From Macrostomum lignano (lineage: Eukaryota), in the NCBI GenBank assembly GCA_002269645.1, contig NIVC01001063.1, positions 62,001 through 126,000 of the forward strand: DNA of 64,000 bases. The letters run 5' to 3'. How positions within the stretch are numbered: position 1 is the first letter of the stretch; each line of letters opens with the position of its first letter. The position numbers and the translations under genes are program-made. This document shows, piece by piece, positions 38,855-40,990 of this stretch. The notes beneath the pieces are model-generated. The model saw nothing but the letters and a program-made list of their open reading frames with translations, made no database searches and was not told the DNA's origin.

Positions 38855-39463
38855 TTAAAGGTGTTCGGCTAGGAAGCTGTGGAAGAGTCTTTGCACCCTG
38901 ACCATTAATACTGCTATGGGGTAAATGAGGAATTGGAGTTGGTGATGGTGGTGGGATTCTGCGGCTTCTAGTAGGTGGTAATATACATCTTGTGGGTTTA
39001 GTAGGGTTTCGGTCAGGGTGCAGCGCCGGGCCGCTGTCATGAGACTCCGCCGTGCTCCGTGTAGTTCGGTCGGTAGTGGCCAGTCTTGCACGTTGGCGGA
39101 GATCTCCAGGGCGGTGAGGGCTTCCAGATCGTGGAGTGTGAGCTCCGGTTGAAAGTCCTCCCGTCGGGCGATTTCTGCGGCCGGCGCTTCCAGGGAATTG
39201 GTGCAGGTTGGGCAGTATGTAATGCCCTGCCGCCCCAGCCTCTGCAGGCAGCTAAAGCAGCTCCAGTGCCTGGAACTGCACAGCTTCAGTTGCGGATCGT
39301 CCCCGCAGAGGCTGCAGTTGATTAGGGGGTCTCGACAGAGTGGACATCTGTCGAAAAGCCCCCTGTCACAACAGGAGAAGCAAACCCGATGGCCGTACTG
39401 GCACATTGGCCTTTGAAAGGGTTTGCTCTCAAGGCAGACGGGGCAGTCGTCGTTGTGATCCAT
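38855..39463 (-). CDS. Tandem double-RING (C3HC4 x2) protein, paralog 1
   Basis: C-x2-C-x10-C-x3-H-x2-C-x2-C-x8-C-x2-C followed by a second RING. C-terminal QDWPLP motif. TATATAAG about 70 nt upstream on the minus strand. Confidence 0.85.
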   Translation of the reverse strand: MDHNDDCPVCLESKPFQRPMCQYGHRVCFSCCDRGLFDRCPLCRDPLINCSLCGDDPQLKLCSSRHWSCFSCLQRLGRQGITYCPTCTNSLEAPAAEIARREDFQPELTLHDLEALTALEISANVQDWPLPTELHGARRSLMTAARRCTLTETLLNPQDVYYHLLEAAESHHHHQLQFLIYPIAVLMVRVQRLFHSFLAEHL

Positions 39464-39770
39464 TTGTGAATTTTTCTCGTTGGATTGGGTGAGTAAGGGA
39501 GTGGGTGAGGGTATGGACTGGTATTCGGTGTAGCTACTTATATAGTGGTCCGTATTAAAAGCGTCATTGTTTGTAATGGGTAGGTGTGGGTAGACAGGGG
39601 TGTCCCTGTGTAGCTTCTAATTGGCCTTCGTTACTTAAACGTAAGTGATATTTAGACATTTTGAACTGTTAGTAGCATGACGCAAAGTGATCGTTAAGCA
39701 TCATTATAAAGTAGTCATTTAAATTCGCTGTTAATACCGCAATCGGCCAGATGAGATGTTGGACCGGCAC

Positions 39771-40280
39771 TTACTCGGCAGTGTTGGTGTCCTGTAGTAG
39801 TTGTAGGTAGATTTCCTCCGCCGGTATCGTAGTTGCTGTCATTGCGTACAAACGGGCCCGTTGAAACAGGGAGGTTAGGTGCGGTTGTCGGTCGTGGGGA
39901 ATAGGCCAGTTCCGGATGATTTGTGCTAGGTGAGTGGTTGTCATGCCGTTCATGCTTTCCATCGTCAGCTTGATTTTTTGTTCGTTCGTGTCCAGCTGCG
40001 GCAAGTTGTCGTTGAGAATTTGTTGGTTGCAGGTGATACAGGTCGTGATGTCGTGTCGCTGTATCGATAGTGCGCAGTCGTGGCACACCCAGTGCTTATT
40101 TTCGCAGAGCTGTATTTGTGGGACGGCGTTGCACACTTTGCAGTTCGTAGGTGGTGCTCGGCACAAGGGACATTTGTCGATCAGTTGTGTGGTGCAGCAG
40201 AAGAAACATAATCTGTGTCCGTTCTGGCAGTAGACAAACGGTGTGACGTCCTCGTCGTAGCACACGGGACATGACTCCAT
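39771..40280 (-). CDS. Tandem double-RING protein, paralog 2
   Basis: CPVC..CQNGHRLCFFC..CPLC plus CKVC..CENKHWVCHDC..CITC; RNWPIP motif. Confidence 0.85.
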   Translation of the reverse strand: MESCPVCYDEDVTPFVYCQNGHRLCFFCCTTQLIDKCPLCRAPPTNCKVCNAVPQIQLCENKHWVCHDCALSIQRHDITTCITCNQQILNDNLPQLDTNEQKIKLTMESMNGMTTTHLAQIIRNWPIPHDRQPHLTSLFQRARLYAMTATTIPAEEIYLQLLQDTNTAE

Positions 40281-40321
40281 CTGGGGGGGGGTGAGAGAAT
40301 AGAAGGTACTGGTAAACTTTA

Positions 40322-40990
40322 CTAATCTACTTCATCATACGTATCGCCTTGCCAGGCTGTTATCTCGCTGTAGGTTAATAGCATCGTTAATTCGGCATGC
40401 TTTTTGATAAGTAGAGGTATTATAGCACAGTGAAATGGGAGACTTGGTTGCTCGCATATTGATAGGTACCGTAAAAGACGTTGCTGAATACGTTGTAACG
40501 GAAAGAGTATTAATTGGTGTCTGTTATGATGTGCGTACATAACGAGGTGCACATATGCGGAGCGAGAGTTTCTAGGGAGGGGCCACTCGTCTAGTCGGCG
40601 AATAACGTCTATTGGAGCGAGTTGATGCACTATGGATGCAGATAACTGAACCGTTTGTACCGGTTGTATACGTAAAAGTTGATCGCGCATTTTTACTAGA
40701 GGAAAAGCATCGCATTCAGGGCACGTGAGCACTGTTCGTTTGGCTAATTTCTTGATACACTGCATGCATACGAAATGTTCATTTGTACAGAACTTTTGGG
40801 TGCGCCATGATGTACAAATCATGCATTGTCGTAGGGCGCCACGACACATGGGGCAGACTTGCCAGGGCTGGATATGGTGAGCATCACTTAAGCAGGATCC
40901 GCATACGCGGTGGTTATTTACACATATACACGGAGGTTTCTTGGTGAGAGTATCGTCTAGACAGACAGGGCATTCGAATGTGTTAGCCAT
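40322..40990 (-). CDS. Tandem double-RING protein, paralog 3
   Basis: CPVC..CVNNHRVCGSC..CPMC plus CMIC..CTNEHFVCMQC..CPEC; DEWPLP motif. Confidence 0.85.
   Translation of the reverse strand: MANTFECPVCLDDTLTKKPPCICVNNHRVCGSCLSDAHHIQPWQVCPMCRGALRQCMICTSWRTQKFCTNEHFVCMQCIKKLAKRTVLTCPECDAFPLVKMRDQLLRIQPVQTVQLSASIVHQLAPIDVIRRLDEWPLPRNSRSAYVHLVMYAHHNRHQLILFPLQRIQQRLLRYLSICEQPSLPFHCAIIPLLIKKHAELTMLLTYSEITAWQGDTYDEVD

What the first reader, a model, noticed from the sequence alone, without database searches (positions are those of the whole stretch)
38855..40990. Tandem array of three paralogous double-RING proteins with a shared WP(L/I)P domain beside a Polinton-like virus capsid module
Seen: three intronless, co-oriented ORFs each have two back-to-back C3HC4 RINGs separated by about 6 aa, with the C-x3-H spacing seen in Siah-type RINGs. 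Each continues into a helical region with a conserved [D/N/E]WP[L/I]P motif (QDWPLP, RNWPIP, DEWPLP). The paralogs are very divergent but all open, and GC-richer than the core viral genes. Known: large DNA viruses use RING E3 ligases to degrade host defence factors (herpes ICP0, baculovirus IE2/PE38, poxvirus p28). I do not recall tandem double-RING families being described for Polintons. Inference: an expanded, diversifying viral E3-ligase cassette in which the WPLP domain is the substrate adaptor. This is the best candidate in the window for an undescribed system.
Basis: partly seen in the sequence, partly recalled or inferred. Interest (0 to 1): 0.85.

Follow-up and report, generated by a model that had tools for sequence, protein, structure and literature searches.

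The report
Retrovirus-like element's own ubiquitin-ligase cassette
The three double-RING genes belong not to the neighbouring Polinton virus but to an envelope-bearing, retrovirus-like jumping element, where they sit behind pol as a conserved, swappable cassette that likely makes ubiquitin ligases predicted to act on host proteins, a kind of cargo our searches found no report of in such elements.

Summary
The three ORFs and their two C3HC4 fingers and WP motif are real, but the middle one stops early in this copy and the Polinton link is an accident. The window holds the 3' end of a Ty3/gypsy errantivirus (end of pol, RING cassette, polypurine tract, 3' LTR) fused to a truncated Polinton. In this genome 82 of 84 integrase hits of this clade have the first RING gene within 1.5 kb downstream; only 2 of 87 Polinton capsid hits do (this locus and its duplicate). 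Whole copies have a single Gag-Env-Pol frame of about 2,500 aa, LTR pairs 99-100% alike and 4-bp target duplications. The RING genes are under purifying selection (dN/dS about 0.1-0.36), evolve faster than env, and are swapped between lineages. RING1 always ends CxxCR (34 of 34), RING2 never. Each gene position has its own conserved splice-acceptor-like or TATA-like signal. Copies with a cut-down cassette also multiplied, so it is accessory. The backbone type is published; the RING cassette was not found in the papers searched. E3 activity, expression and targets are untested.

The parts
37574..38581 (-). 3' LTR of the errantivirus (1,008 bp, TG...CA), with a TATA box at about 38306-38313 and a splice-donor-like G|GTAAG at 38194
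   Evidence: sharp end shared by many loci; LTR pairs in whole copies; TATA and donor positions
38582..38600 (-). polypurine tract directly before the LTR
   Evidence: sequence; same place in whole copies
38855..39463 (-). RING gene A, third position, 202 aa, open: RING1 (7-44), RING2 (50-87), helical WP domain (about 95-202)
   Evidence: dN/dS 0.13-0.28 in 4 of 4 pairs
39538..39544 (-). TATA-like box about 75 nt before gene A; likely internal promoter
   Evidence: TATATA upstream in 3 of 3 third-position genes with an assignable ATG; inference
39669..40280 (-). RING gene B, second position; broken in this copy by a premature stop at codon 170 (39771-39773), which cuts off the last helix
40281..40295 (-). 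pyrimidine run plus CAG directly before the ATG of B; likely splice acceptor
   Evidence: YAG within 2 nt of the ATG in 15 of 15 second-position genes against 167 of 1,652 background ATGs
40322..40990 (-). RING gene C, first position, 222 aa, open
   Evidence: dN/dS 0.15-0.35 against three relatives
41025..41056 (-). conserved non-coding motif between the pol stop and gene C (acceptor-like CAG followed by a small hairpin)
   Evidence: present in 14 of 14 first-position genes from all subfamilies
41097..41197 (-). last ~33 codons of the errantivirus pol frame (integrase tail ending YNLxPR-stop)
   Evidence: matches the C-terminus of the intact 2,440-2,500 aa polyproteins
41189..41205 (.). junction between errantivirus and Polinton, inside the Polinton's PD-(D/E)XK-like nuclease ORF; both sides share a short T-rich stretch. 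The 185-aa ORF at 41000-41557 is a chimera across it
41205..52633 (.). neighbour, not part of the cassette: truncated Polinton (nuclease 5' part, capsid 42409-43890, ATPase, minor capsid, broken pPolB); its integrase end is missing here

Best explanation
[quoted passage not shown] Shown: membership of the element, position, purifying selection, exchange between lineages, and spread of copies with a cut-down cassette. Inferred: the LTR promoter drives one transcript; a donor about 110-130 nt behind the LTR TATA box joins to an acceptor before gene C or gene B, while gene A uses its own TATA box; RING1 (hydrophobic C-P-x-C start, CPxCR end) recruits E2~ubiquitin; RING2, which lacks that arginine, is a structural or binding module; the helical WP domain picks the substrate; products act in trans, so copies without the cassette can still multiply. 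That the targets are host defence factors rather than something else is the weakest step. Odds by step: belongs to the errantivirus 0.97; E3 activity 0.75; host-restriction targets given E3 activity about 0.6.
For: Linkage: 82 of 84 integrase hits have a first-position RING hit within 1.5 kb downstream on the same strand, median gap 409 nt. Whole elements: one ORF of 2,439-2,498 aa in 4 copies with Gag zinc knuckle, two hydrophobic segments around an env ectodomain with furin site, protease, YxDD and integrase; LTR pairs 99-100% identical with 4-bp target duplications readable in 7 copies. Selection: dN/dS 0.11-0.36 in 32 of 33 pairs shown, in all three domains (pairs not independent), 0.13-0.28 for gene A. 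Faster than the core: 0.11-0.25 against 0.09-0.10 for env and 0.00-0.06 for RT, RNase H and integrase in the three closer element pairs; RING identity 39-41% where env is 63% and RT 82%. Exchange: C583 and C717 share a backbone (dS 0.3) but have different second genes (38% identical); C1639 and C240 have backbone dS 0.3-0.8 but cassette dS 1.4-1.7. E3 signature: RING1 ends CxxCR in 34 of 34 distinct genes, RING2 in 0 of 34; Sina_RING matched by 18 of 21 members; confident model (pLDDT 91.5) whose residues 1-48 overlay on SIAH1, RING1B and TRAF RINGs at rmsd 1.7-2.1 A over 45-48 residues, Z 4.7-5.2. Expression signals by position: 14 of 14, 15 of 15, 3 of 3; donor in 4 of 5 LTRs examined plus the window's. 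Family extends beyond this genome: full-length relatives at 28-41% identity (P0005-P0007).
Against: No activity, substrate or expression was shown. Pfam scores are mostly below the curated cut-off and the fold Z-scores are modest, as for any small RING. No sign of dN/dS above 1 in any domain, so an arms race is not shown. Only 29 of the 82 integrase-linked first genes match into the C-terminal domain; 21 belong to a class that keeps only the two RINGs (124 aa) and 22 to a class with a 70-aa remnant, and examined copies of both have LTRs 99-100% alike: the cassette is not needed in cis, and may matter little. The donor is degenerate in the one whole three-gene element examined (C391). RING domains without ligase activity exist (PMC11992055, search listing only).
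Confidence: 0.45

Rival explanations
1. Same element, but the proteins serve its own life cycle: they regulate export, packaging or budding of the element's RNA and Gag-Env-Pol product, as CERV does for Cer1 or the RING protein Z does for arenaviruses, with or without ligase activity.
For: Same genomic slot and spliced expression as CERV (PMC10309623, passages); a Platyhelminthes gB-type errantivirus is sister to Cer1 (PMC13524379 section 8; which one is not stated there); arenavirus Z is among the RING fold matches; a long unspliced RNA holding splice sites needs some export route.
Against: 43 of 82 integrase-linked copies belong to classes with a cut-down cassette that still multiplied, though help in trans is possible; paralogue number varies from 1 to 3 and genes are swapped, unlike a core function; CERV's described domains (H, M, G) are not RINGs.
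Confidence: 0.25
2. Same element, but the proteins are decoys: zinc-finger scaffolds that bind E2 enzymes or SIAH-type host ligases and block them without transferring ubiquitin themselves.
For: RING2 lacks the arginine in 34 of 34; a 124-aa two-RING form without the helical domain spread in about 21 copies; closest Pfam match is the host SIAH RING.
Against: RING1 keeps CPxCR almost invariantly over 25-40% identity, also in outside relatives; the helical domain is under purifying selection too.
Confidence: 0.17
3. The genes are kept because they help the host (for example stress or germline survival) and the element is only their vehicle.
For: Purifying selection does not say who benefits; a pol-less 6.9-kb derivative that keeps both RING genes open has spread (5 copies examined).
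Against: Every copy examined in context lies in an element or its fragment; no intron-bearing or stand-alone host version was seen among the hits; many copies are decaying like other element genes.
Confidence: 0.08
4. One reading: an E3-ligase cassette of the Polinton-like virus.
For: Adjacent to the capsid module in this window and its duplicate contig C1064; adintoviruses do carry small Cys-rich genes, and one Oncoid model is a RING fold match (rank 20; PMC8502044 passages).
Against: 2 of 87 capsid hits have a RING within 20 kb, both this one locus (99.7% identical); 0 of 20 other Polinton loci; the junction cuts a Polinton gene and is followed by errantivirus pol tail, tract and LTR.
Confidence: 0.02

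Closest known systems
GAG-ENV-POL errantiviruses with HSV/gB-type env (Ty3/gypsy, Metaviridae), incl. Platyhelminthes_Rhabditophora_Mlig_errantivirus_2 (Chary and Hayashi, PMC13524379)
   Same: Gene order gag-env-pol, class III-like env, LTRs, PBS. The subfamily seen in C548 has the LTR spacing (9,727 nt) and the 12-nt PBS listed for that element.
   Different: The paper's text and its 7 text supplements never mention RING. The subfamily that fits the listed element carries only the 124-aa two-RING form; the two- and three-gene cassettes, and the window's lineage (RT 80%, integrase 74% to it), are not described there.
CERV of C. elegans Cer1 (PMC10309623)
   Same: [quoted passage not shown]
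   Different: One 517-aa protein with H, M and G domains, required for RNA export; no RING fold described; not a paralogue array.
Extra ORF3 genes of bdelloid LTR retrotransposons (PMC5408684)
   Same: Non-env cargo behind pol, family-specific, gained and lost.
   Different: GDSL esterase, DEDDy exonuclease, coiled-coil or membrane proteins; RING and ubiquitin are not mentioned.
Sina/SIAH RING (PF21362) and other host RING E3s
   Same: C-x3-H spacing, fold of RING1 (40% identity, rmsd 2.1 A over 45 residues to SIAH1), terminal arginine.
   Different: Two RINGs in tandem and a helical domain without a clear fold match instead of SIAH's zinc fingers and TRAF-like domain (SIAH layout recalled).
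RING E3 ligases of large DNA viruses (ICP0, IE61, baculovirus and giant-virus RINGs)
   Same: Virus-encoded RING proteins; appear as RING-only fold matches; the likely working principle.
   Different: Match is limited to one RING (TM-score about 0.2 over the query); those are DNA viruses. Lentiviral accessory proteins borrow host cullin-RING ligases rather than encode a RING (recalled).

Membership tests
Ty3/gypsy LTR retroelement (Metaviridae) | protease-RT-RNase H-integrase order behind a Gag with zinc knuckle | tested here: met
   (whole copies; the window keeps only the pol tail)
Ty3/gypsy LTR retroelement (Metaviridae) | paired TG...CA LTRs, PBS, polypurine tract, short target duplication | tested here: met
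   window LTR and tract
Errantivirus, HSV/gB-type, GAG-ENV-POL | env ectodomain between gag and pol with signal, furin site and anchor | tested here: met
Errantivirus, HSV/gB-type, GAG-ENV-POL | env is a class III (gB-like) fusogen | tested here: inconclusive
   Monjiviricetes_fusion E 8e-5, below cut-off; only PDB sequence match is glycoprotein B at E 0.12; not folded. The published entry that fits a sister subfamily is typed ENV_HSV.
Polinton/Maverick gene | consistent linkage to capsid, pPolB and integrase within the element | tested here: not met
   2 of 87 and 0 of 20
RING (C3HC4) E3 ubiquitin ligase | eight zinc ligands with RING spacing and fold | tested here: met
   RING2 overlays on the RNF213 RING at Z 4.3-4.9
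RING (C3HC4) E3 ubiquitin ligase | linchpin arginine after the last cysteine (role: PMC12326332 passages; position recalled) | tested here: met
   RING1 34 of 34; RING2 0 of 34
RING (C3HC4) E3 ubiquitin ligase | E2-dependent ubiquitin transfer | not testable with these tools
   needs an in vitro assay
Sina/SIAH family | RING followed by zinc fingers and a TRAF-like substrate domain (recalled) | tested here: not met
   the C-terminal half is predicted all-helical in both models; no SIAH substrate-domain match in Pfam for any of 21 members
Rev/CERV-like export factor | required for export of unspliced element RNA | not testable with these tools
   only indirect: cut-down cassettes in multiplying subfamilies

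The most novel reading that the evidence does not exclude
An invertebrate endogenous retrovirus-like lineage is 'complex' in the lentivirus sense: it carries an exchangeable array of up to three of its own ubiquitin ligases, with a new substrate-binding domain, made from alternatively spliced RNAs and used in trans to destroy host silencing or immunity factors, while cassette-less copies free-ride on it.
Probability: 0.35. Interest if true: 0.87.

Novelty: new variant of a known kind. Interest (0 to 1): 0.68.

Why it matters
Animal LTR retrotransposons are rarely known to carry counter-defence genes, and none encoding its own RING ligases turned up in the searches run. If these are active E3s, their substrates would name the host factors that restrict envelope-bearing Ty3/gypsy elements outside insects, and the cassette would show that accessory-gene arrays with subgenomic splicing arose in this lineage apart from vertebrate retroviruses. 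A protein 99% identical to one member is recorded from the flatworm Macrostomum lignano (P0004), a laboratory model with transgenesis (PMC12801592 passages), so the question can be tested directly. The case also shows how nested mobile elements can fake a viral gene neighbourhood.

Tried and rejected
Expression and splicing: no RNA holder listed on record; contigs of three runs guessed to be RNA and one unlabelled run cover the genes, one X1 contig spans 39202-41086 without a difference, but no joint with splice-type ends at the predicted sites was listed (tables cut): inconclusive. Complex of C with A: no answer, score 0.00, alignments not used: not evidence either way. Fold of the helical domain: best Z 5.9 and 5.0 in whole-model searches, no Foldseek match at E<=0.001, no usable Atlas hit; the domain was not folded alone, so this shows neither a known nor a new fold. 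Word-index homologue searches gave only 2 and 3 single-RING hits. Viral contigs: 1 locus, a single-RING match in a giant-virus contig; metagenomes: none of 21 candidates confirmed. Early ideas dropped: Helitron, Penelope or rolling-circle end (the sharp hairpin-bearing end at 37574 is simply the LTR end); BIR-like reading of the WP motif (no BIR match in Pfam). Literature: 10 searches found no RING cargo in a Ty3/gypsy element or tandem-RING family in Polintons; the library lacks most subscription papers, and Repbase, the 2020 classification of this worm's LTR elements and Sacco et al. 2022 were not seen. Earlier scan notes: nothing by place or sequence.

Full report
Observation. Each has two C3HC4 fingers back to back and a WP(L/I)P motif, at 25-27% identity to C. 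Pfam's best match is Sina_RING, above cut-off only for B. They are GC-richer than the Polinton genes. One correction: B is not whole. It stops at codon 170 and its frame continues for 33 codons matching the last helix of its relatives.

The genes are not Polinton genes. Searches of the own genome with A and C each returned 150 scored matches (capped, so lower bounds), and the capsid protein 87 scored of 384 candidates. Only 2 of those 87 have a first-position RING hit within 20 kb: this locus and a 99.7% identical duplicate on contig C1064 (the RING list was the 116 C-type rows). I fetched the matching side of 20 other capsid loci: none has a RING gene, 19 have the Polinton integrase there, and 9 have the nuclease gene that is cut in the window. 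The Polinton match ends at 41189 and the match to other RING loci ends at 41205, over a short shared T-rich stretch. The 185-aa ORF at 41000-41557 is a chimera across that junction.

What they belong to. Left of the junction lie the last ~33 codons of a gypsy-type pol, the three genes, a polypurine tract and a 1,008-bp LTR. Whole copies elsewhere show LTR - PBS - one long frame - RING genes - LTR. In 4 copies the frame is unbroken at 2,439-2,498 aa: Gag knuckle, hydrophobic segment, ectodomain with furin site, anchor, protease, RT, RNase H, integrase. The env shows a weak class III fusogen match. LTR pairs are 99-100% identical and 4-bp target duplications can be read in 7 copies (read by eye). 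Of 84 integrase hits of this clade, 82 have the first RING gene within 1.5 kb downstream; the 2 misses are a tandem duplicate and a contig end. Conversely 82 of 116 C-type hits have a listed integrase upstream; the other 34 include this locus, its duplicate, 5 examined pol-less derivatives and nested fragments; not all were examined. A same-family RT piece in the same orientation lies about 4 kb beyond the window's end, past the Polinton pair. The likely history is a Polinton landing in pol followed by a deletion; this is inferred.

The cassette is modular. The window's lineage has three genes, two other lineages have two, and two derived subfamilies keep only a 124-aa two-RING protein or a 70-aa remnant. 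Among the 82 linked first genes, 29 match into the C-terminal domain (some with stops), 21 and 22 fall in the two cut-down classes, 10 are other fragments (typed). A 6.9-kb pol-less derivative keeps both its RING genes open. Elements with close backbones carry different second genes or far more diverged cassettes, which points to exchange or differential loss.

Selection. From the fetched stretches I took 44 long RING ORFs, 34 distinct. Of 33 pairs with identity at least 55% and dS above 0.08, 32 have dN/dS 0.11-0.36 (p at most 0.002); the exception involves a copy with a foreign tail. Pairs share history, so they are not independent. Gene A had no partner in that set and was tested apart: 0.13-0.28 in 4 of 4 pairs, three near saturation. 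The genes are thus kept as proteins, yet change faster than env or pol. No domain showed dN/dS above 1.

Protein anatomy. The model of A is confident (pLDDT 91.5, pTM 0.82); that of C is weaker at the N-terminus (80.5). RING1 overlays on SIAH1, RING1B, TRAF and similar RINGs, RING2 on the RNF213 RING; matches cover single RINGs only. RING1 ends CxxCR in 34 of 34 genes and RING2 in none. An arginine linchpin stabilises E2~ubiquitin (PMC12326332, passages); its position after the last cysteine is recalled. So RING1 is the likely catalytic finger. The helical WP domain has no clear match (see Tried and rejected); its role as substrate adaptor is inference.

Expression, inferred from sequence. Downstream frames of an LTR transcript need their own route. 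All 14 first-position genes share a non-coding motif with an acceptor-like CAG after the pol stop; all 15 second-position genes have YAG within 2 nt of the ATG (background 167 of 1,652); all 3 third-position genes with an assignable ATG have a TATA-like box instead (2 more had no ATG within 60 nt). A G|GTAAG donor lies 106-125 nt behind the LTR TATA box in 4 of 5 LTRs examined and at 119 nt in the window's. Read data did not settle this.

Reach. A profile search of 1.84 billion representatives gave 7 hits at E<=1e-10. P0004 is a mis-joined gene model named 'RING-type domain-containing protein' from Macrostomum lignano, 99% identical to one family member over 195 aa. P0005 (41% to the C type), P0006 and P0007 (28-31%) are full-length relatives, with both RINGs and the WP motif, from unnamed sequencing runs; the best G000 matches of P0006 and P0007 are 30-33%, so they likely come from other organisms. 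Their context is unknown.

Comparison with what is known. GAG-ENV-POL errantiviruses with gB-type env are described from flatworms, nematodes and bryozoans (PMC13524379: abstract, passages, section 5 part 1, section 8, supplement searches). One listed flatworm element fits the C548 subfamily by LTR spacing and PBS. RING occurs 0 times in that paper's text and text supplements; figures could not be seen. CERV of Cer1 fills the same slot with a different protein (PMC10309623, passages); bdelloid elements carry enzymes there (PMC5408684, passages); adintoviruses carry Cys-rich Oncoid genes (PMC8502044, passages). PMC12801592 (passages) classifies this worm's LTR families; the word 'ORF' does not occur in it. 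Ten searches found no RING cargo in a Ty3/gypsy element; the library is incomplete and Repbase was not searchable.

Verdict. Real genes, wrong host element. They are a selected, shuffled accessory cassette of an envelope-bearing Ty3/gypsy element. Most likely they are ubiquitin ligases aimed at host proteins (0.45); a role in the element's own life cycle (0.25) or as decoys (0.17) remains open. New variant of a known kind; interest 0.68.

Noticed in passing
G000 C583, C717, C1639, C106 (loci L055, L047, L054/L063, L110/L111): gag, env and pol form one uninterrupted frame of 2,439-2,498 aa with two hydrophobic segments around the env ectodomain, so one polyprotein would cross the membrane twice.
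   Followed up: partly
G000 C301, C525, C1192, C2828, C2869: A 6.9-kb non-autonomous derivative lacks pol and the C-terminal half of env but keeps two open RING genes; where both LTRs were held (4 of these 5) they are 99.8-100% identical.
   Followed up: partly
window 37581-37618: A hairpin near the LTR's 3' end keeps a 9-nt loop and shows paired changes in its stem between subfamilies (read by eye).
   Followed up: no
window 41205-64000: An abundant Polinton family (384 capsid candidates, many open, 84-92% identical). Here two decayed copies lie about 12 kb apart with frameshifted pPolB; a nuclease gene near the capsid gene is present in only 9 of 20 copies examined.
   Followed up: partly
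window 59567-59857: A 290-bp piece bounded by inverted 28-nt arms that begin like Polinton ends; a similar piece lies about 2.5 kb beyond the window.
   Followed up: no
window 52707-57423: An unrelated, env-less gypsy element with 176-bp LTRs (99% alike) is inserted in the Polinton and is absent from the duplicate contig C1064.
   Followed up: partly
window 58226-58957: A GC-richer 243-aa ORF inside the Polinton region without a family match; weak relatives occur in L030 and L057.
   Followed up: no
G000 C2121, C272, C87, C1130, C1405: Dense nests of this errantivirus inserted into itself and into other mobile elements, tens of kb long, resembling transposon traps.
   Followed up: no
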